64,000 bases of DNA from Acutalibacteraceae bacterium (GTDB lineage: Bacteria; Bacillota; Clostridia; Oscillospirales; Acutalibacteraceae): assembly GCA_045544055.1 (NCBI GenBank), contig JAZPYF010000045.1:13597-77596 (forward strand). Direction: 5' to 3'. This document shows positions 28,401 through 43,195 of the stretch, piece by piece. Below the pieces are notes generated by a model. The model worked only from the letters and a program-made list of their open reading frames with translations, made no database searches and had not been told where the DNA came from. A program made the translations under genes and the position numbers. The stretch's first letter is position 1. The number at the start of each line of letters is the position of its first letter.

Positions 28401-28721
28401 TTCGTATGTATCTCCTGCGGCAAGTGTGTCTGTGCCGAGCAGGTAGCCGACGCTACTGTCATGCGCAGGGCTGATATCGCCGTTGTATCTAAGTGCAAGA
28501 CCGTCAGGGATATTGTGCGTGATTTTTATATCATTTACATCAAATTCATTTGAGTTTTTAAGCCTGAGTGTGATGGTTGCACCGCCGTCAGTTTCCTGTG
28601 AATCTGCGGACAGACCGAGGCCGTATTCGTTGGTGCTCAGAGCAGAGGAACCTATGCCGAATAAGCCGCATAATACCGTGCAAAGCACCGTGGCAATAAG
28701 TCTTGAATATGCCTTTTTCAT
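25467..28721 (-). CDS. secreted S8 (subtilisin-family) serine peptidase with C-terminal type-I dockerin
   Basis: Catalytic Asp (VLGMVDGPV), His (HGTHVAGIMG) and Ser (GTSQAAPIVTAVAGL). C-terminal dockerin repeats GDINANGKTDANDV and DADCDGAITESDAL. N-terminal signal peptide. Start ATG 28721 (GAGGTG 6 nt upstream). Confidence 0.88.
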   Translation of the reverse strand: MKKAYSRLIATVLCTVLCGLFGIGSSALSTNEYGLGLSADSQETDGGATITLRLKNSNEFDVNDIKITHNIPDGLALRYNGDISPAHDSSVGYLLGTDTLAAGDTYEAQLVFSVLASPASETVEAPTIKKTNEKAIIAAVIAAVVIIAAAVIFARKQKRAAALMLALAMLLPSAGIFGVHAIGTDELRSFTLEDNISIGGKTYPLSITVNYLASTAKNSYFEIETADGETPEEGLTVTRFTADFNGKATANESVKSVTYEIRSESDGFAAGTVGEATLNGCEWSADNLHLKPGENTVTFTATLTNGETQTQVHSLYFDSGEIYKHTKSEETEENGTKYVKEIVNIYFDVDTTDERIEEILSEIGAERVGEINAVVMVQARIKADGLDGLNKKCKEIEKYNEVISASIEQILPLEVSAIPDDPWYYFPDSYQEPWNEDIPDGFNWHMEAVQAASAWDYDKYYNHVVLGMVDGPVMTDHEDFDNLIKFAGTYESDNVFATTEKGKAAQSHGTHVAGIMGAKANNGLGITGLLWDTEIYAANFEAQYTTTYIVDAMASHIANGAKAVNLSIGLSKGYDPNDPTYNPYLDPFSEYDLYSTALPCVTTISSLLKQGKEFVVIQAAGNGTIDSRYSVSKPRSVDASQTGLICAIDPDIRYGSLTTAQVQNVYDHTIVVGAAQNLSSSTDGAKFQMAYFSNSGERVDIYAPGYTIHSTATQQTATDGTKIQYLQMTGTSQAAPIVTAVAGLCFAINPDFTGSQVKSIICAEANTKYAVIDNKEVITGTTELYHPADLGDGRMVSMKLAAEAALRTVCGKANYAQLNRIIAVAQSLDPNDFTNYEIVQAVLDSIDYNLYEFQQDKVDAKYIELLDAMDKLIEKTPADYSEVEKAKAEAAALNKADYIDFSAVTAAVNAVVYGKYSDEQAAVDQMAADIRAAISALVPLPSINSDDYNVISDNTNKLIVITEDYVDSYAECLSAGGGYTLTHAPNSRGTYSTGSTFTLTRESYDDVVYTVAVIGDINANGKTDANDVFLAKMYALGMLEADTKTMFIAADADCDGAITESDALLIQEASLLQNTIFNYYTPGE

Positions 28722-28861
28722 TATGCTCACCTCTATAATATAATAAAACTGAAATTAATATAAAATTTTCTCAGTATTTATTATACAAACAATGCTTGCT
28801 AATGTCAAGAACACAGGTTATGCAAAGCCCGAAACTAAATACAAAACGGCTGTTTTTAATC

Positions 28862-33224: not shown

Positions 33225-33437
33225 CTGTATGTGAAAATGACGAAAAACCTTACAAATTTTCAAAAAGCCGAATTTTGACTTTGATGTCAAAAAAGAACAA
33301 AAACGAAATTTCGTTGTGCAATATAAACAAAAACTATAAGCGATGATAGTATAATGTGTCGAGAGAGTTGATCGGGACTTGCCAAAATCGTTGTGCAAAC
33401 TGCACAAATAAGTGATACAGCTTTTGTGCATTTAGTC

Positions 33438-33466
33438 TTGACAAAACGCACAAAAAATATTAGAAT
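33438..33466 (+). promoter_or_regulatory. sigma-A-type promoter for the 45-aa ORF
   Basis: TTGACA 33438-33443, 17-nt spacer, TAGAAT 33461-33466, about 20 nt upstream of the AAAGGAG RBS. Confidence 0.55.
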
Positions 33467-33498
33467 GCAAGTGTAAACAAACGAAAGGAGAAATAAAA

Positions 33499-33636
33499 AT
33501 GTTTGCAAGATTTGTATTCAAGAAGAAAGAAGAGCTTATGAAGGAAATTTCAAAAGAGAAGAATTTTTTCCGTATGCTCGCAAAATCAGCAGAGCTTGAG
33601 GGCCTTCTCAACTACATGAACACCAACGTTCAGTAA
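33499..33636 (+). CDS. 45-aa basic helical small protein of unknown function
   Basis: ATG 8 nt after AAAGGAG. Sequence MFARFVFKKKEELMKEISKEKNFFRMLAKSAELEGLLNYMNTNVQ. Below the 60-aa cut-off of the ORF track. Has its own promoter and shares the terminator at 33741-33783. Confidence 0.5.
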   Translation: MFARFVFKKKEELMKEISKEKNFFRMLAKSAELEGLLNYMNTNVQ

Positions 33637-33740
33637 TCAGAGCCTGAAGCTCACCCCTATGGGAGTATCAAATCAGGGCGTTGCCCGTTTATATAGATAG
33701 CAAATTCCCCCGGGCGTTTTCCGTATCACTCAGATACGTC

Positions 33741-33783
33741 AAACTCCTCCGAGATACGTGAGTATCGTCGGAGGAGTTTTTTT
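33741..33783. terminator. strong bidirectional terminator
   Basis: 12-bp stem AAACTCCTCCGA / TCGGAGGAGTTT, with an inner GATAC-GTGA-GTATC extension, followed by a T-run. It abuts the stop of the minus-strand hydrolase gene. Confidence 0.85.
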
Positions 33784-34762
33784 ATTCGGTAATATATTTG
33801 CCTGTAAAATCCCAGACCTTGTTGAAATATGTTTCGGGGTCTGTTGTGACTGAAACGGCGTGGTCGGCTTCGGGAATAGTGAGCAGCTCTTTTTCGCCGT
33901 TGAACGCTTCAAAGTTACGGTGTACCATTTCAAACGGAACAAAGTTATCAATCTCACCGTGTATAAACAGCATAGGCGTTTTTGAGCGCTTGAGTCCCTC
34001 AATGCTTGAAGCGGCTTTGAAATCGAGATCAACGTGGCGTTTTATGCAAATCTGTGCCGCGTGCAGAAACGGAAAGACAGGCAGGTGGAACATGTCGACT
34101 ATCTGGTGAGAAAATTCGTCCCATACGCTTGTATAGCCGCAATCCTCAACAGCACATTTTACATTGTCGGGCAAAGGCTCGCCTACGGTCATCATTACCG
34201 TTGCCGCACCCATTGATTCACCGTGAAGCACAATCTGTGCATCGGGGTCAGCGGTAACGGCATAGTCAATCCATGCAAGCAGATCGTATTTATCAAGATA
34301 GCCCATTGTGTATGTGACTATGTTCTTGGCTTTTACTCCCTTTTCATTACCTCTCATATATGGCAGAATAACATTGTAGCCTTTATTGAAATACTCTCTG
34401 GCGTAGTGAGCCATTCCGCCGGGACCCGATGTGTAGCCGTGGCAGATAATTGCCCATTTGTGGCTGTCGCCGTTTTCAATAAGTACGGCACAAGGCTCGT
34501 CACCGATTGAGTTGCGTGTGACGATTTCGCTTTTGGGAACAGAGTCAAACCATTCTGCAACACCCTCAAGTATATTGTAAGACGGCTTTTTTGACGGAGG
34601 AACGGGTGGGTCGCCGAAAATTTTGCTTGTGATGTCGCTGCCTTTTTTGGTAAGCACACCGAGCCACATTATTTCGCCTGCAATAAACGGTACGGCTGCG
34701 GCAACGGCTGTGACAGCACCTGCGCCGATAAATATTTTCTTTGAAAGCTTCATATCGGTCAT
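33782..34762 (-). CDS. membrane-anchored alpha/beta hydrolase
   Basis: 326 aa. N-terminal hydrophobic helix IFIGAGAVTAVAAAVPFIAG, nucleophile elbow HGESMGAA, C-terminal FIHGEIDNFVP and ADH. Confidence 0.8.
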   Translation of the reverse strand: MTDMKLSKKIFIGAGAVTAVAAAVPFIAGEIMWLGVLTKKGSDITSKIFGDPPVPPSKKPSYNILEGVAEWFDSVPKSEIVTRNSIGDEPCAVLIENGDSHKWAIICHGYTSGPGGMAHYAREYFNKGYNVILPYMRGNEKGVKAKNIVTYTMGYLDKYDLLAWIDYAVTADPDAQIVLHGESMGAATVMMTVGEPLPDNVKCAVEDCGYTSVWDEFSHQIVDMFHLPVFPFLHAAQICIKRHVDLDFKAASSIEGLKRSKTPMLFIHGEIDNFVPFEMVHRNFEAFNGEKELLTIPEADHAVSVTTDPETYFNKVWDFTGKYITE

Positions 34763-34898
34763 CTCCTTTGAGGGATTTCTGTGTATATTTTATCTCAATT
34801 ATATTTATCCGTCAACGTATTTGTAACGCAAAAAATGTTGAAAAAGGAAAAATGATGTGTTAATATATTATTCATAAACCAATGGAGGACATTCAACA

Positions 34899-36719
34899 AT
34901 GAAAAAGAATAAGCTTTTGATGAGGATTATTTCATTTGCGGTTGTTGCAGCGATGCTTTCCGGAATATTCTCGGCATCGGCAGTTATGCCGACCCCCGAA
35001 AAAGAGTACGATATGCTTCCGGTTATATACGTTACGGGCTTTGGCGCAACAACTCTTGCCGAGCATAATGCTGACGGCAGTGTAGAAGCTGTATTTCCGC
35101 CGAGCATAGATTCAATTCTCGATTATCTCGGCGACAATATTTTCAAAATATTTATCGGACTGTTTGAAACCATTTTTATGAATAAAACAGAAAAGCTGGC
35201 GGCTTCGCTTGCTCCTCTTATTCTTGATATCGTCGATGCTATGGCACTGAACCCTGACGGAACTTCAAAGCACCCGAACGTCGGACCGATCGTATCCGGT
35301 GCAAAGAATACGTCGCTTGAAGCCTTTACAAAAAAAGGAATGCTTGCCTATGTACCCTATACAGGCTCCGAATTTCTCGATATGGAATGTGTCGGCGATA
35401 TAATCGGTGACGATAAGGTGTTTAATTTTACATATGATTGGCGTTTCAGCCATATTGACAATGCTGAGCTTTTCCGTGAATACGTTATGGAAGTGCTTGA
35501 GCTTACGGGTGCCGAAAAGGTTAACGTTTATTCAATCAGCCAGGGCGCGCTTATTGTAGGAGCTTACCTTTACAGCCACGCTGAGGATGGATTTATAAAT
35601 AGCATTTTCTTCGATACACCGGCGCTTGAAGGTACTGACCTCGTATCTGCAGTTTTCGGAATTGAGGATATTACAATCAATACCGCACCTCTTGGTCCGC
35701 TGCTTTCGCAGATTCTTCACATGGAGTTTGACCTCAGCCCGATTCTTTCGGTTCTTCCTGTTGATTTCATTAATCTTGCCTTTGACTACGGTAGGAGAGA
35801 CCTCATTCTTCCCGATGTTATTTACGGAATTGCTTTCTGGGATATGCTGCCCACGAGCGAGCTTACAAAGCTTCAGGAGCATTGGCTTGACCCTGCTGAG
35901 AGCGCAAGAGTAATTGAAAAGACAAATGAGCTTCACTACGGATTTATGTCTCACATTAAAGAAACCTTTGATAAGGCAGAGGCAAACGGCGCGAAAATAA
36001 CTATTAAGAGCGGCTACGGTATACCGATGATTATCGGAAATGACGATAATTCCGATGCTATTGTTAATCTTAAGTATTCCTGCGGTGCGACCTGTGCACC
36101 TCTGGGCAGTAAATTTGATGACAGCTATACTCAGGTAAAGAACGGTGTCTATGCTGTATCGCCCGATAGGACAATCGACCTTTCGACCGCCTACTATCCG
36201 GAAAGAACGTGGATAATCCGTAACAATGTTCACGGTCAGGCAGAATGGGATTCACGCTCATTCAAGTTTATTGTAACTCAGCTTATGACCGAGGGCGTCA
36301 AGGATGCGTATTCATCATATGAATTTCCGCAGTTTATGGAGAGCATGGCACCCAATGATAAGGTGACAATGTCATTCACCTCAACCAACAGCAGCTTCCT
36401 TGCCTATGATGAGAGCGGCGAATATATGGGCAAGGTAAAAATTACAAACCTCTCTCTTGAGGATACGATGTATGTAAGCTCAATTGCTTCGGATTACAAT
36501 GCTCTCAAATTTGCGTTTGACAAAACGCTCAGGCTCAAGCCCGGTGAAAGTGTCGAGATTACAATTCTCAACGCACCCGGCGGCAGTGACGTAACCAAAA
36601 TGACCTTTGCAAATGTTACTCTTACATATAGAACGGGTCTGCTTTCAAAGGCTCAGTCTGCCGGCTTCGGCGTTACGATGATTTCTGCCGATGATTATGC
36701 AGGCGTTATCCAAAAATAA
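34899..36719 (+). CDS. secreted LCAT-family (lecithin:cholesterol acyltransferase-like) lipase/acyltransferase, paralogue 1
   Basis: 606 aa. Signal peptide MKKNKLLMRIISFAVVAAMLSGIFSASA, LCAT-type motif FTYDWRF, nucleophile region VYSISQGALIV. GGAGGA RBS. Confidence 0.6.
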   Translation: MKKNKLLMRIISFAVVAAMLSGIFSASAVMPTPEKEYDMLPVIYVTGFGATTLAEHNADGSVEAVFPPSIDSILDYLGDNIFKIFIGLFETIFMNKTEKLAASLAPLILDIVDAMALNPDGTSKHPNVGPIVSGAKNTSLEAFTKKGMLAYVPYTGSEFLDMECVGDIIGDDKVFNFTYDWRFSHIDNAELFREYVMEVLELTGAEKVNVYSISQGALIVGAYLYSHAEDGFINSIFFDTPALEGTDLVSAVFGIEDITINTAPLGPLLSQILHMEFDLSPILSVLPVDFINLAFDYGRRDLILPDVIYGIAFWDMLPTSELTKLQEHWLDPAESARVIEKTNELHYGFMSHIKETFDKAEANGAKITIKSGYGIPMIIGNDDNSDAIVNLKYSCGATCAPLGSKFDDSYTQVKNGVYAVSPDRTIDLSTAYYPERTWIIRNNVHGQAEWDSRSFKFIVTQLMTEGVKDAYSSYEFPQFMESMAPNDKVTMSFTSTNSSFLAYDESGEYMGKVKITNLSLEDTMYVSSIASDYNALKFAFDKTLRLKPGESVEITILNAPGGSDVTKMTFANVTLTYRTGLLSKAQSAGFGVTMISADDYAGVIQK

Positions 36720-36736
36720 AATTCTGATATGTTGAT

Positions 36737-36772
36737 AAAGAGCAGCGGTGTTCCGTTGCTCTTTATTTTTTT
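36737..36772 (+). terminator. rho-independent terminator after the 606-aa lipase-like gene
   Basis: Stem AAAGAGCAGCGG / CCGTTGCTCTTT (one G-U pair) followed by ATTTTTTT. Confidence 0.75.
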
Positions 36773-36929
36773 GACAAATCGCACAAAAAAACGCACGAAA
36801 TTTCGTCAGCGTCAGCGGCATTTGGCGGCGGTTTTATATTTGAAATATAATTCTTTTTATGGTAATATATAATTTATAGTGAAAGTGTATTCTTTCGCAT
36901 ATATTTTAATCGGAAAGGACTAACCCAAA

Positions 36930-38075
36930 ATGAAAAAATTCTTATCAGTTCTTCTGGCAGCCATTATGGTTGTTGTTTGCTGCGTACCTGCTTTCGCAGC
37001 AGAGTCACTCTATCCTCTTCAGTTTAATAAGGATGGCGATTTCAAAATCCTCCACATCACAGACTGTCAGGATGAGTATCCCGCAAGCGAAACAATGCTT
37101 CAGTTCATCGAGCATTGCCTTAAAAAGTACGACCCTGACCTTGTTGTTCTCGGCGGTGACAATACCGTTGACGGTAGAGGCAAGCAGGAACAGGCCGTTG
37201 CTCAGATTGTAGAGCTTTTTGTTAAGTACGAAACATATTTCACACTTGTTTTCGGTAACCACGACCGTGAGTACGGCCCTGTTGAGGAGCAGATTAAGCA
37301 CAATGCAGAGCTTCTTGGCTACTATCAGAAGCACGGCGGAAAGTATTGCCTTGCTAATGATATTTTCCCCGAGCTTACAGGTGTAGGTACACACTGCCTT
37401 CCCGTTCTTTCAAAGGACGGAAAAAATGTTGCTTACAACCTCTTTATGTTCGATTCCGGTACAAGCGGTTATAAAGACCCAGCAATCTCAGAAGAAGTAG
37501 GTTATGATTGCGTACATCCCGACCAGATCGAATGGTACAAGACTATAAGCAAGGCAGCTAACGTTCCCTCAATGGCATTCCAGCACATCATTGTCGGTGA
37601 GATTATGGATGTCTTCTACAAAGAAAAGAAGGACGTTGCAATCAGCTTTGACAGCAAGTTCTGCAACGGCAAGGAATATGACCTTACAGTAGCAGATTTC
37701 TCCGCTATCAAAGACGGTATGCTCCTTGAGCCTCCCTGCCCCGGTGTTGTAAACTACGGTCAGTTCGATGCACTTGTTGAGTGCGGCACAGTTGCTGTTT
37801 TCTCAGGTCACGATCATGTTAACACATTTACAGTTGAGTATAAGGGCGTTGATATCGTCAACACTCCCGGTTGCACATTTAACTCCTACGGTCAGGATTA
37901 TAACAGAGGCGCACGTCTCATCACTATCCACGATGATACAAAAGCATATGATTCCGAGGTTATCCTCCTTGCAGAAGAAGCAATGGACAGCGAATTTATC
38001 GAGCTTAATTTCTTCAGCAAGATCTTCGGCATTATGATCAACAAGATCATCCTTGCTTTCTTTGACCTTTTCTGA
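36930..38075 (+). CDS. secreted calcineurin-like metallophosphoesterase
   Basis: 381 aa. Signal peptide ending PAFAAES. Motifs ILHITDCQD, GGDNTVDG, FGNHDRE, FSGHDHVN. Confidence 0.8.
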   Translation: MKKFLSVLLAAIMVVVCCVPAFAAESLYPLQFNKDGDFKILHITDCQDEYPASETMLQFIEHCLKKYDPDLVVLGGDNTVDGRGKQEQAVAQIVELFVKYETYFTLVFGNHDREYGPVEEQIKHNAELLGYYQKHGGKYCLANDIFPELTGVGTHCLPVLSKDGKNVAYNLFMFDSGTSGYKDPAISEEVGYDCVHPDQIEWYKTISKAANVPSMAFQHIIVGEIMDVFYKEKKDVAISFDSKFCNGKEYDLTVADFSAIKDGMLLEPPCPGVVNYGQFDALVECGTVAVFSGHDHVNTFTVEYKGVDIVNTPGCTFNSYGQDYNRGARLITIHDDTKAYDSEVILLAEEAMDSEFIELNFFSKIFGIMINKIILAFFDLF

Positions 38076-38107
38076 TTTTCTGTTTATAAGATAGGATTTG
38101 ATGTTTG

Positions 38108-39058
38108 ATGAAATCAAAGATTAAACACAAAATTCTTGCGGTTGTCTGTGTGGTTTGTCTTGTGTTTGCGGCGGCTGTTGTTGCCGTTCGCGCTGCACAG
38201 CCCAATCCTGTTTTCACTGTAAACGGTGCAAGTCAGCTTCACCCGGGTGAAGAAGTGAATGTTGCCGTAACGGTCAACAATAATAAGGGCTACTGCGCGG
38301 CAGAGTTTGTGCTTAGCTACGATTCCGATGTTCTCACGCCTGTCGGCGTTGAGGCAGGTGATGCCGCAAGCGAGTATTTTTCTGCAAACCCGAACTATGC
38401 TGACGGCAAGGTTTACTTTACCGTTATTGACGATTCGCTGATGACTGCGGGCGGCACAGTTGCCAATATCCGCTTCAAGGTTGACGAAAACGTTGTTCTT
38501 TACAGCGGTGACCTTAATCTCAAGGTTTCCTCAATCGTCGGCAACGTTGTTTTCGGCTATTCGTTCCTGCCTGTTAAGGCTACTGTTGCTCCGGGTGAAA
38601 TCCACGCCGCAAAGCAGATTTTTGTTCCCGATGCAGCAGACCCGACTAAGGATGAGCAGCTCTCCGTCAAGGCGGATAGCGGCAGATATGTTATTGGTGC
38701 TACAACCTATGCAAACCTTACACAGGCTGAGCTTGCTGATAATTTCGGCTCGCTCAAGGTTGAGTTCTTCTCTGCAAATGGTGCGGCTCTCAGCACATCT
38801 GCTCTGCTTTCTACCGGTTGCAGAATCAAGGTTGTTGACGGCGACACAAGCAACACGCTTGTAATGAGCGTCAAGGGCGATGTTGACGGTAACCTTTCTA
38901 AGGATGCCAACGATGCTTTCCTCGTCGGTATGTTTGAAAGCGGAATGCTCAGCGCTGACAATGCAGATACCGCATACGCAGATGCGGCAGATATCAACGG
39001 CGACGGAGTTGTTGACAGCAGCGACTTCAATGCCGCTATGACCGAATCACTTAAGTAA
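38108..39058 (+). CDS. small scaffoldin-like adaptor: N-terminal anchor/signal, one cohesin module, C-terminal dockerin
   Basis: Cohesin-like FTVNGASQLHPGEEVNVAVTVNNNKGYCAAEFVLSYDSDVLTPVGVEAGD...GTVANIRFKV. Dockerin repeats GDVDGNLSKDANDA and ADINGDGVVDSSDF. Starts 30 nt after the phosphoesterase gene. Confidence 0.75.
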   Translation: MKSKIKHKILAVVCVVCLVFAAAVVAVRAAQPNPVFTVNGASQLHPGEEVNVAVTVNNNKGYCAAEFVLSYDSDVLTPVGVEAGDAASEYFSANPNYADGKVYFTVIDDSLMTAGGTVANIRFKVDENVVLYSGDLNLKVSSIVGNVVFGYSFLPVKATVAPGEIHAAKQIFVPDAADPTKDEQLSVKADSGRYVIGATTYANLTQAELADNFGSLKVEFFSANGAALSTSALLSTGCRIKVVDGDTSNTLVMSVKGDVDGNLSKDANDAFLVGMFESGMLSADNADTAYADAADINGDGVVDSSDFNAAMTESLK

Positions 39059-39071
39059 AAAGCTATAAAAA

Positions 39072-39116
39072 TAAAAATCAGCGATTATTCTTTGATGAAT
39101 TTTCGCTGATTTTTTG
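39072..39116. terminator. bidirectional terminator between the adaptor gene (+) and the WG-repeat gene (-)
   Basis: 10-bp stem AAATCAGCGA / TCGCTGATTT, with an A-run before and a T-run after. Confidence 0.75.
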
Positions 39117-39123
39117 TTTGAAT

Positions 39124-40524
39124 TTAGGCGGCTTTTTCTGTTTTGATTATAAGGTTCAGTTCGCTGTCATATACCTCTGTCCTGTCATCATAAACAACCG
39201 TGAGGTATATTCTGCCGTTGTGGTTCTTTATTTCGCAGTAGTTGCAGTTCGTGAAAACAAATTCCTGCTTGTTGTAATCGTAAACTCTGTATTTGCCTGT
39301 GTAAACGTTGTCGCCTATGTACTCAAGGTCGGCTACGGTGAGCAGGCCGCAGTCTTCTGCTGTGGTGACGGTTTTCCATTCGTCTTTCTTGCAGGGCAGA
39401 GTTAAAAGCTGCTTGTGCGTCTGAGCATTGTAATACGTGCGTGTGCCGTCATCGTCAATGTAGCAGTATGCGCCGTCAAAATCCTCGGTGTAAGCGGTGT
39501 CGCTTCGCTCACTTAACAGCTTACCGTTTTCATCGCAGAAAAGTATTCTGCCGCTCAACTCGTCTGTTGCGGTAAAGCAGCCGAGGTTTTCCGAATATGC
39601 TGTGGCATTCAAACCTTTGCAGGATATGATTTCGTCTGTAAAGGCATCACGGAAAAATTCATCGGGTGCACTCATATGCGAATAGAATTTTATGAGCTTA
39701 CCGTTAATCTCAAAAAAGTAATTCATAGCAGACAGCGATAAGGTGTCACATTCTCTTTCACGCAGCAGCTTCAGCTCGGAATCATAAATATATTCTTTAG
39801 TATTATCTGTTGCAATAAAATATTTGCCGCCAACTGTCTGTATATCGTTATAAACGGGCTCGAGCAGCCATTTTCCGTCAGCAGAAATTATGCCGTAGCC
39901 CTCTTCTCTGTTGTATGCGGCAACTGCTTTGTTTGTCACAAACGGACCGCAGTAGTCAAACCTTTCAAATACCGTCTGACCGTTTTCGTCGCACACGGTC
40001 ATATAGTTATCCTCGCTTAAAAAGTCATATATTACGAGCAGTCCGTTGTAAAAGCATTTGCCGTCTGTATCAACTGTCTGGTATTCGTTGCCCGAAAAGA
40101 GCAGGTTTCCGCCGTAATCGTAAACATTAAACGGCTGTTCAAACTGCTGGCAGATTATTCTGTTTTCGGAAAGTGACATTATGTTGTCTTTCAGCTCAAG
40201 TCTGAAACTTCCGTCAGAGGATACCAGCAGAGAGTTGTGGCAAATCGGCTCCCAGTCTCCCTCCAGAATTTTCAGGCAGTAATATGTTTTATCTTCTACC
40301 TGAAAGGTCTGGTATGAGTTATAGATAGGCTGAGCAACCTGCTTTCCGTCGGTTGTCATAAGTCCGTAGGCTCTGCGCGGTATATAGCCGTTCTCTTCTT
40401 CACACGTGTAATCTGCCATATACGGTACAAGCTCGGTTGTGCTGCTTTCGGGCTTTTCGGTGCAGCCTGCAAAGCTGAATAAAACCAAAATCACAAGCAG
40501 AGCGGATGTAAGTTTTCTTAACAT
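39124..40524 (-). CDS. WG-repeat-containing lipoprotein
   Basis: Lipobox LFSFAGCT after MLRKLTSALLVILV. Repeated DGK(W/Q)..P.Y motifs such as DGKWLLEPVYNDIQ and DGKQVAQPIYNSYQ. Start ATG 40524 (AGGGGG 8 nt upstream), with a TTGACT-N18-TATAAT promoter upstream. Confidence 0.6.
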   Translation of the reverse strand: MLRKLTSALLVILVLFSFAGCTEKPESSTTELVPYMADYTCEEENGYIPRRAYGLMTTDGKQVAQPIYNSYQTFQVEDKTYYCLKILEGDWEPICHNSLLVSSDGSFRLELKDNIMSLSENRIICQQFEQPFNVYDYGGNLLFSGNEYQTVDTDGKCFYNGLLVIYDFLSEDNYMTVCDENGQTVFERFDYCGPFVTNKAVAAYNREEGYGIISADGKWLLEPVYNDIQTVGGKYFIATDNTKEYIYDSELKLLRERECDTLSLSAMNYFFEINGKLIKFYSHMSAPDEFFRDAFTDEIISCKGLNATAYSENLGCFTATDELSGRILFCDENGKLLSERSDTAYTEDFDGAYCYIDDDGTRTYYNAQTHKQLLTLPCKKDEWKTVTTAEDCGLLTVADLEYIGDNVYTGKYRVYDYNKQEFVFTNCNYCEIKNHNGRIYLTVVYDDRTEVYDSELNLIIKTEKAA

Positions 40525-40616
40525 AAAAAATCCCCCTTTCATCTGCATTATAAGCAAAATGAAAAGGGGAAGTCAATAATACTTACAGCATTGTAACGCT
40601 GATTACGGTTTTGTAA

Positions 40617-42053
40617 TCAGAAGTGGGAGAGATTCTGCTCGCCGTCAGCAAACAGGAACTGGGGATAGAGAATGTTTGAGCTTACCGTGGGTTGACCCTC
40701 AAAGCTGAGCAGGTAGAAGAGCATATCTGCTACGTCAGAGCCGCAGCGGCAGGGAACGTGAGGTGCGCCCTCTATGAACCATGTGTTGTCGGGCAGCAGA
40801 CAGGTAGAAGCGTCAATAACTCTGTCGGGTGAGAGCTTTGCAGGGTCAGCAGCAACATAGTCATCGCCGAGAGTTTTGCCGAAGGGAGCGATTGTTGCGC
40901 CTGCGGACATAAGCTCCGATTCGAGGATTGCATCGCCGTTGACATAGGCTCTTTCATAAACAGGAATAACGGGTGAGCCGTAGGCGGTAATGATTGTAAC
41001 GCTTACGCCGTCAGCCATCATCTTCTTGATAAACTCATCTCTGCCGAGTCTGAACTTCTGGAATTTGTCAATGCGCTTGATAAGACCTGAGTAGTTCTCA
41101 ATATCGTCACCGAATACAAACTTCTTTGCATCCTCGTATTCATCAGCCTGAGTCATAGCCCAGAGGCCGGGCATTGTGCCGAAGGAATCACGCATTGTTT
41201 CTTCGTAAATCTGTTCCTTATAGTTTTCTGTGAGGTTGTTTGCAAAGCCGAGCAGAGAATCTGTAATGCCTGTTTTGTCGAGGATTGTCCAGAGTACATT
41301 CATATCGGGCAGAGTGTGGTAAAGGAAGTTGTTGAGAAGCTCCTTATCAAAGCCGACCTTGCCGCTGAGTGCATCGGATGCGACGTATGAGCCGTATATT
41401 GTAGAGGAAAGGAACATACAGCTGTCAACCTTGGAGTAGCCGTATTCATCGAGATATGCAAGCGTCATAACTCCGCCGAGGCTGCAGCAGATGATGTCAA
41501 CCTTTTTGCAGCCGTGGTCCTTGAGTGCAAGGTTTACAGCGGCATCAATTTTCTTTGCAACTGTGTACGGGTCAAGACGCCAGTCGTATGTAACGTAGTA
41601 AACGTTCTCTGCACCGAGTCGCTCGGATGCTTCAACAACAATGCCGAGCTCGCTGTCGCCGTATGCCTTGAAGCCCTCAAGGTCTTCGGGGTAGTTGCTC
41701 ATTGCAAGCGGATATTCTTTTACGGAAACGTTTGCAACCGTGTCACCGTTTTTATTGCACGCCATATCGGCAAAAAGGTCGTTGACAAAATCGCACACCT
41801 CGTTGACAAGACCGTCTGTGCCGGTGAAGACTGTGGCAAATAAAGCCTTGAAAACAGCTGCGACAATCGGACCTGCTTCAACAGAAAGTGCAGGGCGCTC
41901 GTTTTCTGTGCCGAGGTCAACGGTAAGAGCGGTAAAATCAAGACCTCTTACTATAACGAGAGGAGTAGCCGGCTTTTTTTCGGCGGCAAATGCCGTACCC
42001 GTGCAGGTGAGCACGAGAATAACGGACAGGATAATGCAGATAAAGCGTTTCAT
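40617..42053 (-). CDS. secreted LCAT-family lipase/acyltransferase, paralogue 2
   Basis: 478 aa. Signal peptide ending GTAFAAEK, LCAT-type motif VTYDWRLDP, nucleophile region IICCSLGGVMT. Colinear with the 606-aa protein at 34899-36719. Confidence 0.6.
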   Translation of the reverse strand: MKRFICIILSVILVLTCTGTAFAAEKKPATPLVIVRGLDFTALTVDLGTENERPALSVEAGPIVAAVFKALFATVFTGTDGLVNEVCDFVNDLFADMACNKNGDTVANVSVKEYPLAMSNYPEDLEGFKAYGDSELGIVVEASERLGAENVYYVTYDWRLDPYTVAKKIDAAVNLALKDHGCKKVDIICCSLGGVMTLAYLDEYGYSKVDSCMFLSSTIYGSYVASDALSGKVGFDKELLNNFLYHTLPDMNVLWTILDKTGITDSLLGFANNLTENYKEQIYEETMRDSFGTMPGLWAMTQADEYEDAKKFVFGDDIENYSGLIKRIDKFQKFRLGRDEFIKKMMADGVSVTIITAYGSPVIPVYERAYVNGDAILESELMSAGATIAPFGKTLGDDYVAADPAKLSPDRVIDASTCLLPDNTWFIEGAPHVPCRCGSDVADMLFYLLSFEGQPTVSSNILYPQFLFADGEQNLSHF

Positions 42054-42208: not shown

Positions 42209-42284
42209 GCGGATGTAGCTCATCTGGTAGAGCGCCACCTTGCCAAGGTGGAGGTAGCGAGTTCGAGCCTCGTCATCCGCTCCA
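42209..42284 (+). tRNA. tRNA-Gly (anticodon GCC), CCA encoded
   Basis: Folded by hand. 7-bp acceptor stem GCGGATG/CATCCGC, D-arm GCTC/GAGC, anticodon stem CCACC/GGTGG with loop TTGCCAA, T-arm GCGAG-TTCGAGC-CTCGT, 3' TCCA. Confidence 0.93.
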
Positions 42285-42324: not shown

Positions 42325-42349
42325 CTATATAATCACACCAACAACTGAA

Positions 42350-42495
42350 AATGCCAAATGGGGTGCTGATGTTATCGGCTGAGAGTCGGGCTTGGAGTCC
42401 GTAACCCTTGAACCTGATCCGGGTAATGCCGGCGTAGGAATTTTAAGTGTTGCAGCTTATTCGCCAACAGGAGAAATTCCTTTTGGCGTTTTTTT
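42350..42495 (+). promoter_or_regulatory. TPP (THI-box) riboswitch with terminator-type expression platform
   Basis: Conserved core GGGGTGC...GCTGAGA...ACCCTTGAACCTGATCCGGGTAATGCCGGCGTAGGAA (42360-42440). Terminator CGCCAA..AGGA-loop-TCCT..TTGGCG plus T7 at 42462-42495. Upstream promoter TTGACA 42305-42310 / TATAAT 42328-42333. Confidence 0.9.
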
Positions 42496-42529
42496 GTTGC
42501 AACTTTAAGAAAAGAAAGGTGTTTTCAAA

Positions 42530-43195
42530 ATGTCAAACAGTCTCAACCGAACAGAAACCACAAAACGTCTCGCACTCAGCGGAATTATGCTTGCCATGAG
42601 TACGGTGCTCTCATTTGTCAAGGTCTTTGAATGGCCTTTCGGTGGCAGTATTACAGCCTGCTCTATGCTGCCGATTGCTATGCTGGGCTACACCTACGGC
42701 ACAAAATGGGGTCTCGTCTGCGGTCTTGTTCACGGTGTGCTCCAGGCAATAACCGGTGCAACTATGAGCTCTGCCTTTGCAGGTCAGGATGCAGGCAGCG
42801 TTGCCGCAATAGTTGCGATTGATTATCTTGTTGCGTTTGCCGTAGTCGGTGTTGCAGGTATGTTCAAGGGCAGAACAAAAAGCCACACTCTCTCCTTTGC
42901 TGCCGGTACGGCAATTGCTGTTTTCCTGCGCTATGTCGCTCACGTAATTTCAGGCTATATTTTTTACAGGTCATATGCCGATTGGTTTTTCGGTGAGGTT
43001 ATGGTCAACGAATTTTCGGCTGAGCTTATGGAAAAATGCTCTCCAAATCAGTTGGGCTTTATATATTCTGTAATTTATAATGCCGCTTATATGATTCCTG
43101 AGCTGATACTTACTACCGTTGTGGCGGCGCTTGTGATAGCGCTTATTGCCCCCGTAAGGAAAGAAATGATTAAAAACGTAGTATCACAAAAATAA
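42530..43195 (+). CDS. thiT: thiamine transporter ThiT (ECF S component)
   Basis: 221 aa, six hydrophobic helices. Lies directly downstream of the TPP riboswitch. The N-terminal TKRLALSGIMLAMSTVLSFV pattern is ThiT-like. Confidence 0.8.
   Translation: MSNSLNRTETTKRLALSGIMLAMSTVLSFVKVFEWPFGGSITACSMLPIAMLGYTYGTKWGLVCGLVHGVLQAITGATMSSAFAGQDAGSVAAIVAIDYLVAFAVVGVAGMFKGRTKSHTLSFAAGTAIAVFLRYVAHVISGYIFYRSYADWFFGEVMVNEFSAELMEKCSPNQLGFIYSVIYNAAYMIPELILTTVVAALVIALIAPVRKEMIKNVVSQK

What the first reader, a model, noticed from the sequence alone, without database searches (positions are those of the whole stretch)
33782..42053. Island of exclusively exported lipase-like / phosphoesterase proteins with a cohesin-dockerin adaptor next to tRNA-Gly: possible cell-surface lipid-scavenging system
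Seen: between the AcnX terminator and tRNA-Gly lie six genes in about five transcription units, separated by long AT-rich spacers. All encode exported or membrane-anchored proteins:
- an anchored alpha/beta hydrolase (GESMG);
- two distant paralogues with the LCAT-family YDWR motif (FTYDWRF, VTYDWRL) and nucleophile elbows (SISQG, CSLGG);
- a secreted calcineurin-like phosphoesterase (GDNTVDG, GNHD, GHDHV);
- a one-cohesin/one-dockerin adaptor;
- a WG-repeat lipoprotein.

Established: LCAT-family enzymes are phospholipase A / acyltransferases. Calcineurin-like phosphoesterases include sphingomyelinase- and phosphodiesterase-type enzymes. Cohesin-dockerin adaptors recruit enzymes into cellulosome-type assemblies.

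Inference: the set could deacylate and dephosphorylate host, plant or microbial membrane lipids at the cell surface. None of the hydrolases carries a dockerin, so the link to the adaptor is positional only. The tRNA flank and patchy organisation suggest an accessory region, but no integrase or direct repeat was found.
Basis: partly seen in the sequence, partly recalled or inferred. Interest (0 to 1): 0.7.

Follow-up and report, generated by a model that had tools for sequence, protein, structure and literature searches.

The report
Mosaic of secreted lipase-like and phosphoesterase genes
The six exported-protein genes are real, and the two lipase-like enzymes have intact catalytic triads, but the block is a patchwork of at least three independently inherited gene modules in an uncultured herbivore-gut Clostridia bacterium, not a single lipid-scavenging system or a mobile island.

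Summary
Six consecutive genes (33782-42053) all start with a signal peptide or membrane anchor, all quoted motifs are present, and tRNA-Gly(GCC) flanks them.

The two lipase-like proteins are full-length paralogues (hhalign E 1.8e-57). They belong to an unannotated family seen in uncultured Clostridia/Oscillospiraceae (850 50%-identity clusters at E<=1e-30). Ser-Asp-His and the YDWR motif are invariant. The fold is lipase-like; the best PDB match is Tle4, then bacterial lipases. The Pfam LCAT match is below threshold.

The "system/island" reading is not supported.
- tRNA-Gly, the TPP-riboswitch/ThiT gene and g6 are syntenic in all 20 relatives scanned for tRNAs.
- GC and codon usage are native, and there is no integrase or att-like repeat.
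- Only one of about 15 close relatives carries all six genes.
- The units that travel together are g6 with the WG lipoprotein, and the phosphoesterase with the cohesin-dockerin adaptor. The second pair recurs in two unrelated loci.
- g2 and g1 move alone.
- The phosphoesterase resembles Lmo2642, purple acid phosphatases and Rv0805. No sphingomyelinase appears in the top 50 fold matches.

Some support for a lipid/phosphoester theme remains: lipase-family genes lie near phosphoesterases in several other gene arrangements. Interest is modest.

The parts
33782..34762 (-). g1: alpha/beta hydrolase (GESMG nucleophile elbow) with one N-terminal hydrophobic anchor. It is a singleton module.
   Evidence: ORF. 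Pfam Peptidase_S9 7e-12, Hydrolase_4 1.5e-10, Abhydrolase_1 1.8e-10. Only weak PDB relatives. In relatives it sits next to g2 only in L011; in L015, L017 and L020 it sits next to DUF7674.
34899..36719 (+). g2: secreted lipase-like serine hydrolase. It is a paralogue of g6 with an extra C-terminal region of about 120 aa and predicted triad S214-D386-H445.
   Evidence: BLASTP against g6: 26% identity, E 5e-20. hhalign of the two families: probability 100%, E 1.8e-57, 464 columns. Invariant D180, R182, S214, Q215, G216, D386 and H445 in 47 homologues. No Pfam family above cut-off. The 78% orthologue is in an unrelated housekeeping context.
36734..36767 (+). Intrinsic-terminator-like hairpin after g2.
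   Evidence: 15-pair stem followed by a T-run. It separates g2 from the g3-g4 unit.
36930..38075 (+). g3: exported calcineurin-like metallophosphoesterase with a signal peptide and a conserved C-terminal amphipathic hydrophobic helix (residues 361-379).
   Evidence: Pfam Metallophos 2.4e-13. AF2 model pLDDT 89.6. Foldseek top hits are Lmo2642 (3e-11), purple acid phosphatases, Rv0805 and Mre11. Invariant D45, Q47, D77, N78, H111, D112, H219, H294 and H296. C-terminal tail conserved across the family.
38105..39058 (+). g4: secreted adaptor of the form cohesin - unknown middle module - dockerin. It starts 29 bp after g3 and is probably co-transcribed with it.
   Evidence: Pfam Cohesin 1.1e-16 and Dockerin_1 8.8e-4. 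PDB cohesins match at 1.7e-5 and a dockerin (5lxv_B) at 2e-3. The MPE-adaptor pair is conserved in L087 (59% and 40% identity) and in L090.
39068..39119 (.). Inverted repeat between the convergent genes g4 and g5, probably a bidirectional terminator.
   Evidence: 23-nt arms, 83% complementary, 6-nt loop.
39124..40557 (-). g5: WG-repeat lipoprotein, the conserved downstream partner of g6.
   Evidence: Pfam WG_beta_rep 1.1e-11. Lipobox FAGC. Orthologues with lipoboxes lie 7-137 bp downstream of the g6 orthologue in 20 loci, sometimes duplicated. No PDB relative.
40617..42053 (-). g6: secreted lipase-like serine hydrolase with a large helical cap and predicted triad S191-D374-H432.
   Evidence: AF2 model pLDDT 92.4. 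Foldseek top hits are Tle4 (1.2e-4) followed by bacterial lipases. Profile against PDB: Lip_vut1 1.3e-6 and B. subtilis LipA 1e-5 at the nucleophile elbow. Invariant Y156, D157, W158, R159, S191, G193, G194, D374 and H432. Pfam LCAT 17.3 bits, below the cut-off of 21.
42209..42284 (+). tRNA-Gly(GCC), a syntenic core neighbour of g6 and not an island boundary.
   Evidence: It is present between ThiT and the g6 orthologue in all 20 relatives scanned. There is no second copy of its 3' end in the window.
42349..43195 (+). TPP riboswitch (42349-42457) and the thiamine ECF S-component ThiT (42530-43195). This is the conserved right-hand anchor of the locus.
   Evidence: Rfam TPP 66 bits. Pfam Thia_YuaJ 1e-28. 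Synteny.
25467..28730 (-). Dockerin-bearing subtilisin-like protease. It is the only dockerin-carrying enzyme in the window and a candidate ligand for a cohesin such as g4's.
   Evidence: Pfam Peptidase_S8 1.5e-34 and Dockerin_1 6.3e-6 (26.7 bits, above cut-off). The motif scan of all window ORFs found dockerin-like loops only here and in g4.

Best explanation
The 8.3-kb stretch is a rearrangement-prone, natively composed piece of chromosome in an uncultured herbivore-gut Acutalibacteraceae (Oscillospirales). Several independent genes for exported hydrolases happen to lie side by side there. It is not one machine and not a mobile island.

Module 1, vertically inherited: TPP-riboswitch/ThiT, tRNA-Gly, g6 and g5.
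- g6 is a Sec-secreted serine hydrolase of about 480 aa. It has a minimal lipase-type alpha/beta core (oxyanion loop after strand 1, YDWR after strand 4, CxSxG elbow, Asp374, His432) and a large helical cap.
- It most likely cleaves carboxyl-ester bonds of lipid-like substrates outside the cell.
- g5 is a membrane-tethered WG-repeat lipoprotein. I infer that it acts with g6, for example by holding it or its substrate at the surface.

Module 2, accessory and moving as a pair: g3 and g4.
- g3 is an exported binuclear metallophosphoesterase. It is probably held at the membrane by its C-terminal amphipathic helix and releases phosphate or alcohol from phosphoesters.
- g4 is a ScaC-like adaptor with one cohesin and one dockerin, co-transcribed with g3. 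Its dockerin would plug into a surface scaffoldin. Its cohesin would recruit dockerin-bearing enzymes, which in this lineage include a subtilase and other phosphoesterases.

Module 3, singletons that move alone: g2 (a g6 paralogue with an extra C-terminal domain) and g1 (an anchored alpha/beta hydrolase).

Shown: gene content, homology, fold, catalytic residues, synteny and its variation, native composition. Inferred: export, substrates, surface tethering, and any cooperation between the modules.
For: Organism:
- The related loci are Acutalibacteraceae, Clostridia or Oscillospiraceae MAGs, mostly from goat, sheep, deer, buffalo, cattle or horse gut.

Lipase family:
- g2 and g6 are homologous over the whole catalytic unit.
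- The triad and YDWR motif are invariant in 49 and 47 homologues.
- The g6 model is confident. Ser lies at a strand-helix elbow, and Asp and His follow the last two core strands.
- Structural and profile neighbours are lipases.
- The family holds 850 clusters at E<=1e-30. Where sources give a name it is almost always 'hypothetical protein', with one automatic 'lysophospholipase'.

Modularity:
- The ThiT, tRNA-Gly, g6 order is present in every relative scanned for tRNAs.
- The WG lipoprotein lies directly downstream of g6 in 20 loci.
- The g3-g4 pair lies next to WG in only 5 relatives. The same pair occurs in the unrelated loci L087 and L090.
- g2 is at this locus only in L011 and L017, and elsewhere in L086.
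- g1 is attached to DUF7674 in L015, L017 and L020.
- At least four different arrangements, including an inversion of the segment from FAD534 to the WG gene, exist among genomes whose flanking housekeeping proteins are 91-97% identical.

Not an island:
- GC, GC3 and codon-usage z-scores of the six genes lie within -1.5 to +1.7 of the window genes.
- There is no att-like repeat and no PADLOC hit.

Cohesin-dockerin use in this lineage:
- A dockerin-bearing subtilase lies in the window.
- A dockerin-bearing metallophosphoesterase lies in L089.
Against: - Six exported proteins in a row is somewhat more than chance (p about 0.025 for five).
- One relative (L011) keeps all six genes in the same order.
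- Lipase-family genes lie close to phosphoesterases in several other synteny classes: a PAP-type metallophosphoesterase, a PI-PLC-X protein, and the L090 cluster of two metallophosphoesterases, an adaptor and two lipase paralogues. The modules may therefore cooperate more than 'independent' implies.
- No expression data, substrate data or signal-peptide predictor was available.
- The triad geometry could not be measured because model coordinates are not exposed.
Confidence: 0.6

Rival explanations
1. The lipases, the phosphoesterase, the adaptor and the lipoprotein cooperate as one cell-surface system. It deacylates and dephosphorylates plant, host or microbial membrane lipids and feeds the products to the cell.
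For: - All six products carry export or anchor signals.
- L011 has the full set in the same order.
- A lipase-family gene lies within about three genes of a phosphoesterase in other synteny classes. These are c13 (purple-acid-phosphatase-type) in about 11 loci, c35 (PI-PLC-X) in 6 loci, and L090 with MPE-MPE-adaptor followed by two lipase paralogues.
- An alpha-galactosidase (GH27) lies beside the lipase in another class. That would fit galactolipid use.
Against: - The genes are not co-inherited. g2 and g1 occur elsewhere, and g3-g4 are absent from at least 8 close relatives that keep g6-g5.
- No hydrolase in the block has a dockerin.
- The g3-g4 pair occurs without any lipase gene within 6 kb in L087.
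- g3's nearest folds are a cyclic-nucleotide phosphodiesterase and acid phosphatases. None of the top 50 is described as a lipid phosphodiesterase.
- There are four or five separate transcription units on both strands.
- The neighbourhood enrichment is post hoc and has no control.
Confidence: 0.2
2. g6 and g5 form a secreted phospholipase toxin with a cognate membrane-tethered immunity protein or chaperone. The analogies are the T6SS pair Tle4-Tli4 and the lipase-foldase operons of Pseudomonas and Burkholderia.
For: - The best structural match of g6 is Tle4 in the Tle4-Tli4 complex (4r1d, E 1.2e-4, 461 columns).
- Family I.1/I.2 lipases, which need a foldase encoded downstream (from my own knowledge), are also among the matches.
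- g5 is a lipoprotein encoded 59 bp downstream on the same strand. This pairing is conserved in 20 loci and g5 is sometimes duplicated.
Against: - TM-scores are low (0.32).
- g6 has an ordinary Sec signal peptide, and no secretion-system genes are nearby.
- g6 is a syntenic, vertically inherited gene rather than a variable toxin.
- Lipase-family members of the other genera, and L003, L021, L028 and L016 within the same clade, lack a WG neighbour.
- g5 has no detectable similarity to Tli4 or to Lif foldases; the PDB sequence search found nothing.
Confidence: 0.07
3. The block is a horizontally acquired genomic island integrated at tRNA-Gly.
For: - It is adjacent to a tRNA.
- g1-g4 are variably present among close relatives.
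- The spacers are AT-rich.
Against: - The tRNA-Gly and g6 adjacency is conserved in all 20 relatives scanned for tRNAs, whose g6 orthologues are 60-76% identical.
- There is no integrase or recombinase ORF.
- There is no repeat of the tRNA 3' end and no flanking direct repeats.
- GC, GC3 and codon usage are indistinguishable from the rest of the window.
- The variable genes lie at the end of the block away from the tRNA.
Confidence: 0.03
4. The enzymes act on the cell's own envelope rather than on external nutrients. Possible roles are lipoteichoic acid or membrane-lipid turnover, or phosphate recycling.
For: - g6 is widespread and syntenically stable within the clade, as housekeeping genes are.
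- g1, g3 and g5 are predicted to be membrane-tethered.
- In many relatives a multi-pass membrane protein (c17) is inserted between tRNA-Gly and g6.
Against: - There is no homology to known envelope-remodelling enzymes.
- The exported proteins evolve much faster (52-76% identity) than the flanking housekeeping genes (91-97%). This fits environment-facing proteins better.
- g1-g4 are dispensable in close relatives.
Confidence: 0.1

Closest known systems
Minimal bacterial lipases of family I.4 / Pfam Lipase_2 type (Bacillus subtilis LipA, rumen metagenome Lip_vut1, PDB 1i6w and 6nkc)
   Same: They share the small alpha/beta core and an oxyanion loop of the form P-V-x-x-V-x-G after strand 1. The nucleophile elbow has a small residue in place of the first Gly: AHSMG in LipA (from my own knowledge), CCSLG in g6 and SISQG in g2. 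The family profile matches them at 1e-5 to 1e-6, and local structural superpositions are 1.9-2.5 A over about 86 residues.
   Different: g2 and g6 are 2.5 to 3 times larger. They carry a helical cap of about 125 residues and an N-terminal helical insertion. The similarity covers only about 55 residues around the elbow. They have the LCAT-like YDWR motif.
LCAT / LPLA2 / PDAT family (Pfam PF02450)
   Same: The YDWR(L) motif lies one strand before the nucleophile, and the Ser-Asp-His triad is in the same order. Of 49 family members, 31 hit the LCAT model at E<=0.01, with a best value of 7e-6.
   Different: The window proteins are below the Pfam cut-off (17.3 bits against 21 for g6; no hit for g2). 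No LCAT or LPLA2 structure is among the 50 best fold matches. These are bacterial secreted proteins, and no acyltransferase evidence exists.
Tle4 (PA1510), a type VI secretion phospholipase effector (PDB 4r1d)
   Same: It is the best global structural match for g6, with 461 aligned columns at E 1.2e-4. Both combine an alpha/beta-hydrolase core with a large helical cap. Both have a partner protein encoded alongside; for Tle4 this comes from my own knowledge.
   Different: Sequence identity is 10% and TM-score 0.32. g6 has a Sec signal peptide, the host is Gram-positive-type, there is no T6SS context, and the partner g5 is an unrelated WG-repeat lipoprotein.
ScaC-type adaptor scaffoldins of Ruminococcus flavefaciens, and non-cellulosomal cohesin-dockerin systems
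   Same: g4 is a small secreted protein with one cohesin and one C-terminal dockerin. ScaC is described the same way, as a small adaptor whose divergent cohesin recruits a separate set of proteins (PMC2930009). R. flavefaciens also attaches peptidases through dockerins (PMC2930009), which parallels the dockerin-bearing subtilase in this window.
   Different: g4 is not part of a sca cluster. It is co-transcribed with a metallophosphoesterase, and that pairing is conserved. It has an unassigned middle module of about 110 aa. No carbohydrate-active dockerin proteins were seen in the window.
Lmo2642 (Listeria monocytogenes cyclic-nucleotide phosphodiesterase), purple acid phosphatases and Rv0805, all in the calcineurin-like metallophosphoesterase superfamily
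   Same: These are the best structural matches of g3 (E 3e-11 to 5e-9, TM about 0.5). The GD, GNHD, H and GHDH metal-binding motifs are invariant.
   Different: Identity is only 13-16%. The first motif reads D-C-Q, with an invariant Gln47 where the canonical motif has D-x-H. g3 has a signal peptide plus a conserved C-terminal amphipathic helix. Its substrate is unknown.

Membership tests
LCAT family (PF02450) | Score above the Pfam gathering threshold | tested here: not met
   g6 scores 17.3 bits against a cut-off of 21, and g2 has no hit. Of 49 g6-family members, 31 match at E<=0.01, best 7e-6. This indicates a distant relationship only.
LCAT family (PF02450) | YDWR-type motif preceding the nucleophile, and a Ser-Asp-His triad | tested here: met
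   Y156, D157, W158, R159, S191, D374 and H432 are invariant in the g6 family. D180, R182, S214, D386 and H445 are invariant in the g2 family.
LCAT family (PF02450) | Overall fold closest to LCAT or LPLA2 (cap and membrane-binding subdomains) | tested here: not met
   No LCAT or LPLA2 entry appears among the 50 best PDB matches. The top matches are Tle4 and bacterial lipases.
LCAT family (PF02450) | Phospholipase A or acyltransferase activity | not testable with these tools
   This needs a biochemical assay.
Lipase-type alpha/beta hydrolases | Alpha/beta core with the nucleophile at a strand-turn-helix elbow, and Asp and His after the last two core strands | tested here: met
   In the AF2 model (pLDDT 92.4), S191 lies between strand 185-190 and helix 193-204, D374 ends strand 371-374, and H432 follows strand 424-428. 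Distances between the residues were not measurable.
Lipase-type alpha/beta hydrolases | Significant profile or structure similarity to characterised lipases | tested here: met
   The profile matches Lip_vut1 at 1.3e-6 and LipA at 1e-5. Foldseek probability is 0.99-1.00 for Streptomyces, Burkholderia, Pseudomonas, Proteus and Bacillus lipases, PhaZ7 and PlaB, although TM-scores are low.
T6SS Tle4-type effectors | Association with a type VI secretion locus and a cognate Tli immunity gene | tested here: not met
   No T6SS genes are present in the window or the related loci. g6 has a Sec-type signal peptide. The downstream gene is a WG-repeat lipoprotein.
Calcineurin-like metallophosphoesterases (PF00149) | Pfam score above threshold and the metal-binding motifs GD, GNH(D/E), H and GHxH | tested here: met
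   Metallophos scores 51.4 bits against a cut-off of 21.5. D77, N78, H111, D112, H219, H294 and H296 are invariant. The first motif is D45-C-Q47 rather than D-x-H.
Acid-sphingomyelinase-like or lipid phosphodiesterase subfamily of metallophosphoesterases | Closest sequence or structure relatives are ASM/SMPDL3-type or lipid-specific enzymes | tested here: not met
   The top 50 fold matches are Lmo2642, purple acid phosphatases, Rv0805, Mre11/SbcD and 5'-nucleotidases. NCBIfam gives only weak generic hits.
Cohesin-dockerin adaptor scaffoldin (ScaC-like) | One cohesin module | tested here: met
   Pfam Cohesin scores 61.7 bits against a cut-off of 24.1. C. cellulolyticum-type cohesins in the PDB match at 1.7e-5.
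Cohesin-dockerin adaptor scaffoldin (ScaC-like) | One dockerin with two Ca-binding repeats | tested here: inconclusive
   Dockerin_1 scores 19.9 bits, below the cut-off of 22.9. Two loops are visible (DVDGNLSKDAND and DINGDGVVDSSD), and a PDB dockerin (5lxv_B) matches at 2e-3. The same C-terminal module is kept in the 40%-identical orthologue in L087.
Cohesin-dockerin adaptor scaffoldin (ScaC-like) | Demonstrated binding to a scaffoldin cohesin and to dockerin-bearing cargo | not testable with these tools
   No complex prediction or binding assay was available. The candidate cargo in the window is the subtilase with a dockerin.
tRNA-associated genomic island | Integrase or recombinase gene, and a direct repeat of the tRNA 3' end | tested here: not met
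   No such ORF exists. The tRNA 3' 24-mer occurs once, allowing up to 3 mismatches. There are no meaningful flanking repeats.
tRNA-associated genomic island | Atypical composition | tested here: not met
   Gene-wise GC, GC3 and codon-usage z-scores lie between -1.5 and +1.7.
tRNA-associated genomic island | Presence/absence polymorphism of the whole block next to the tRNA | tested here: not met
   The tRNA-proximal genes g6 and g5 are conserved. Only the distal genes g1-g4 vary, and they vary piecemeal.
WG-repeat lipoproteins (PF14903) | WG_beta_rep repeats and a lipobox | tested here: met
   WG_beta_rep scores 45 bits against a cut-off of 25.6. An FAGC or LCGC lipobox is present in all 24 orthologues.

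The most novel reading that the evidence does not exclude
Acutalibacteraceae may use a non-cellulosomal cohesin-dockerin scaffold to build a surface assembly for scavenging esters and phosphoesters. In this reading the conserved operon of metallophosphoesterase and ScaC-like adaptor is its core. The unannotated YDWR lipase family would supply the acyl-hydrolase arm, held near the surface by WG-repeat lipoproteins instead of dockerins. The recurrent nearness of lipase-family genes to three different phosphoesterase types would then reflect real cooperation in breaking down phospholipids or galactolipids in the herbivore gut.
Probability: 0.12. Interest if true: 0.6.

Novelty: new member of a known kind. 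Interest (0 to 1): 0.3.

Why it matters
Lipolysis in ruminant and hindgut ecosystems governs which fatty acids are available for biohydrogenation. From my own knowledge, it is attributed to only a few cultured bacteria.

This locus points to a sizeable family of secreted lipase-like enzymes (850 50%-identity clusters at E<=1e-30). Where the sources give a taxon, it is uncultured Clostridia or Oscillospiraceae. The family has no Pfam model of its own and carries essentially no functional annotation. That makes it a concrete target for expression and substrate profiling.

The conserved pairing of an ecto-phosphoesterase with a cohesin-dockerin adaptor adds to the evidence that cohesin-dockerin display is used for more than carbohydrate degradation.

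For genome scanning there is a practical lesson. A run of exported hydrolases next to a tRNA can look like an island or a system while actually being a mosaic at a rearrangement hot spot.

Tried and rejected
- Exact look-up of the window's own g2 and g3 products (P0121, P0241) found no contig on record, so the source assembly could not be read directly.
- PDB sequence searches for g2, g3 and g5 gave nothing useful. NCBIfam gave no family above cut-off for any of the six proteins.
- PADLOC gave no defence-system match, so a defence-island reading was dropped.
- An att-site search found nothing. My first attempt used a generic tRNA 3' end and was uninformative. The tRNA's real 3' 24-mer occurs only once. 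Repeat finding showed only short, chance-level pairs apart from the two noted in passing.
- An HMM built from g3's C-terminal tail found no similar tail in the other secreted phosphoesterases near lipase genes. The idea of a shared C-terminal sorting signal was dropped.
- The tail persists in g3 relatives that have no cohesin neighbour (L088, L089). It is therefore unlikely to be a ligand for the cohesin.
- I considered a link between the lipase and thiamine salvage, because ThiT lies next to g6 here and a thiamine pyrophosphokinase lies two genes from the lipase in another clade. No mechanistic basis was found, and I treat it as probably historical synteny.
- Literature searches for PF02450 in bacteria, for Acutalibacteraceae lipases and for WG-repeat function returned nothing relevant.
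- The cluster c2 (a secreted 507-aa neighbour of the lipase in the 40-44% clade) looked PHP-like by eye but has no Pfam match. It is not counted as a phosphoesterase.

Full report
**1. What is in the sequence**

Pfam confirms four assignments:
- an alpha/beta hydrolase (g1; Peptidase_S9, Hydrolase_4 and Abhydrolase_1, E 1e-10 to 1e-12);
- a calcineurin-like metallophosphoesterase (g3; 2.4e-13);
- a cohesin (g4; 1.1e-16) with a sub-threshold dockerin (8.8e-4) that nevertheless shows two calcium-loop repeats;
- a WG-repeat protein (g5; 1.1e-11).

The two "lipase-like" proteins have no family of their own. g6 reaches only 17.3 bits on LCAT (cut-off 21), and g2 matches nothing above cut-off.

All six products begin with a hydrophobic export or anchor segment, and g5 has a lipobox. 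A crude classifier plus permutation gives p of about 0.025 for the run of exported proteins.

The spacers inside the block are mostly short (29-210 bp, 23-34% GC). The single long one (628 bp) contains a conserved 45-aa gene. The layout suggests four or five transcription units: g1 | g2 with a strong terminator | g3-g4 (29-bp gap) | g6-g5 (59-bp gap).

**2. The lipase-like proteins**

g2 and g6 are paralogues. BLASTP gives E 5e-20. The profile-profile comparison gives probability 100% and E 1.8e-57 over 464 columns. g2 carries an additional C-terminal region of about 120 aa.

Homologues are plentiful, with 341 and 202 hits respectively. Where a source names a taxon, it is uncultured Clostridia, Oscillospiraceae or Ruminococcaceae. 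Nearly all named hits are called "hypothetical protein". An exhaustive profile search finds 850 50%-identity clusters at E<=1e-30 and 4044 at E<=1e-3.

In 49 g6 homologues, Y156-D157-W158-R159, S191, G193, G194, D374 and H432 are invariant. In 47 g2 homologues the equivalent D180, R182, S214, Q215, G216, D386 and H445 are invariant.

The AlphaFold model of g6 is confident (pLDDT 92.4). It places Ser191 at a strand-helix elbow, and Asp374 and His432 after the last two core strands. This is the canonical alpha/beta-hydrolase arrangement. A helical cap of about 125 residues covers the core.

The best PDB fold match is the T6SS phospholipase Tle4. Then come Streptomyces, Burkholderia/Pseudomonas, Proteus and Bacillus lipases, PhaZ7 and PlaB, all with low TM-scores. 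The family profile matches the minimal lipases Lip_vut1 and LipA at 1e-6 to 1e-5 around the elbow. Of 49 members, 31 touch the LCAT model at E<=0.01, but no LCAT or LPLA2 structure is in the top 50.

Conclusion: these are genuine secreted lipase-type serine hydrolases with intact triads. They form an uncharacterised family distantly related to both the LipA-type and the LCAT-type enzymes. They cannot be filed as LCAT members.

**3. The other proteins**

g3's model (pLDDT 89.6) is closest to the Listeria cyclic-nucleotide phosphodiesterase Lmo2642, mammalian purple acid phosphatases, Rv0805 and Mre11. No sphingomyelinase-like enzyme appears. The metal ligands are invariant, except that the first motif is D-C-Q. 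The family carries a conserved C-terminal amphipathic hydrophobic helix.

g4 is a ScaC-like adaptor: signal peptide, cohesin, unknown middle module, dockerin (PMC2930009 for ScaC). g5 has no structural or literature precedent beyond the repeat name. g1 is a generic anchored alpha/beta hydrolase.

None of the hydrolases has a dockerin. The only dockerin-bearing enzyme in the window is a 1087-aa subtilase at 25467-28730.

**4. Is it an island or a system?**

I fetched 80 loci from species-representative genomes. The titles that name a family say Acutalibacteraceae or Oscillospiraceae, and most that name a host are from goat, sheep, deer, buffalo, cattle or horse gut. I mapped the window's genes onto these loci.

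In close relatives the flanking housekeeping proteins are 91-97% identical, while the exported proteins are only 52-76% identical. The findings are:

- **Conserved core.** The order ThiT, tRNA-Gly, g6 is kept in all 20 relatives scanned for tRNAs. In the window, ThiT is preceded by a TPP riboswitch. The WG lipoprotein follows g6 in 20 loci.
- **The g3-g4 pair** is next to the WG gene in only five relatives (L002, L006, L010, L011, L017). It is absent in at least eight others.
- **g2** is at this locus only in L011 and L017. Its closest orthologue (78%) lies among release-factor and ilv/leu genes.
- **g1** is attached to the other side of the locus in L015, L017 and L020.
- **All six genes together** occur only in L011.
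- **Rearrangements.** At least four arrangements exist, including an inversion of the whole segment from FAD534 to the WG gene.
- **The g3-g4 pair travels as a unit.** In L087 it recurs at 59% and 40% identity between unrelated genes. In L090 it recurs as MPE-MPE-adaptor.
- **No island signature.** Composition and codon usage of the six genes are unremarkable. No integrase, att-like repeat or defence signature is present.

The block is therefore a mosaic at a rearrangement hot spot. It is not an integrated island, and it is not a co-inherited system.

**5. What remains in favour of a functional theme**

In L090 the MPE-adaptor module is followed, about 2.3 kb downstream, by two further lipase-family paralogues.

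In the 40-44% identity clade the lipase gene sits three genes from a secreted purple-acid-phosphatase-type metallophosphoesterase. In another clade it is directly followed by a PI-PLC-X protein. In a further clade it sits beside a GH27 alpha-galactosidase. Other classes have housekeeping neighbours such as homoserine O-succinyltransferase or an AraC-like regulator.

This recurrent nearness to phosphoesterases is suggestive, but it is post hoc and has no control. I give the cooperative lipid-scavenging model about 0.2.

**6. Most likely mechanism**

Each module works by itself as part of the organism's extracellular hydrolase repertoire.
- g6 and g2 are Sec-secreted. They hydrolyse carboxyl esters of lipid-like substrates through the Ser-His-Asp triad under a helical lid.
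- g5 is tethered by its lipid anchor and probably keeps g6 or its substrate at the surface. This is inferred only from the conserved adjacency.
- g3 is exported, held by its C-terminal helix, and hydrolyses phosphoesters with a binuclear metal centre.
- g4 docks onto a surface scaffoldin and recruits dockerin-bearing enzymes. In this lineage these include a subtilase and, in L089, a metallophosphoesterase.

Homology, fold, catalytic residues, synteny and composition are shown. Export, substrates, tethering and any cooperation are inferred.

**7. Verdict**

In terms of novelty these are new, unannotated members of known kinds: lipase-type alpha/beta hydrolases, metallophosphoesterases and ScaC-like adaptors. 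Interest is about 0.3. The most useful outcomes are a defined, sizeable uncharacterised lipase family in herbivore-gut Clostridia, and a conserved metallophosphoesterase-adaptor operon.

Noticed in passing
window 33438-33790: The 628-bp 'spacer' before g1 holds a small gene at 33500-33637(+), encoding 45 aa (MFARFVFKKKEELMKEISKEKNFFRMLAKSAELEGLLNYMNTNVQ). It has a near-consensus promoter-like site (33438-33466), an AAAGGAG ribosome-binding site and a hairpin terminator (about 33744-33790) that g1 may share. It is 60-69% identical in 11 related loci, and wherever AcnX was mapped it lies downstream of the AcnX genes. Its function is unknown.
   Followed up: partly
window 33438-33457 and 36771-36790; also 33311-33331 and 33388-33408: A 20-nt element, TTGACAAA[A/T]CGCACAAAAAA, occurs at the -35 region before the small ORF and again just after the g2 terminator upstream of g3. 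Nearby TTGTGCA...TGCACAA palindromes look like an operator. This may be a shared regulatory site.
   Followed up: no
window 42349-42457 and 42530-43195; loci L038-L064: A TPP riboswitch and ThiT sit next to tRNA-Gly and g6 in this clade. In the 40-44% clade the lipase gene lies two genes from a thiamine pyrophosphokinase and next to a histidine phosphatase. This is a recurring thiamine-gene neighbourhood with no obvious reason.
   Followed up: partly
window 25467-28730 (-): This is a 1087-aa secreted subtilisin-like protease with a C-terminal type-I dockerin (26.7 bits). Cohesin-dockerin display in this organism therefore serves proteolysis, not only carbohydrate degradation.
   Followed up: partly
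window 38010-38075 (g3 residues 361-381); alignment A2: g3 has a conserved C-terminal amphipathic hydrophobic helix (FSKIFGxLINxIILAFFxLF) that ends exactly at the C-terminus. More distant homologues that lack a cohesin neighbour keep it in diverged form. It is borderline as a transmembrane segment and may be an in-plane membrane anchor.
   Followed up: partly
window 37050-37070 (g3 residues 42-48): The first metallophosphoesterase motif reads H-I-T-D-C-Q-D. His42, Asp45, Gln47 and Asp48 are invariant across 51 homologues. The canonical D-x-H histidine is replaced by Gln.
   Followed up: no
L001, L002, L006, L008, L009, L012, L013, L016, L022, L024 (between tRNA-Gly and the g6 orthologue): About half of the relatives carry an extra multi-pass membrane protein of 417-476 aa (cluster c17, no Pfam match) inserted between tRNA-Gly and g6. 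Some also carry a gene for a 23S-rRNA-intervening-sequence protein. The window lacks both.
   Followed up: no
L089 11343-12518 (-): This is a 391-aa secreted metallophosphoesterase with a clear C-terminal dockerin, in a related Acutalibacteraceae MAG. It shows that phosphoesterases are cohesin-dockerin cargo in this lineage.
   Followed up: partly
L090 8001-17203: This locus holds a cluster of two g3-type metallophosphoesterases, a g4-type adaptor, a 440-aa metallophosphoesterase-like ORF (the collection's own gene call is 423 aa) and two further lipase-family paralogues (625 aa and more than 609 aa). In the 625-aa one the YDWR motif is replaced by FFTFNLVGDP. It lies next to pyruvate-formate-lyase genes.
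   Followed up: partly
window versus L001, L009, L012, L014, L018, L019: Exported proteins of the locus are only 52-76% identical between genomes whose flanking AcnX, OYE-type reductase and FAD-protein genes are 91-97% identical. The surface-exposed proteins are evolving fast.
   Followed up: no
L060, L063, L073, L075, L083: In another genus-level group, a GH27 alpha-galactosidase with an N-terminal hydrophobic segment and a 3D-domain protein lie immediately upstream of the lipase-family gene.
   Followed up: no
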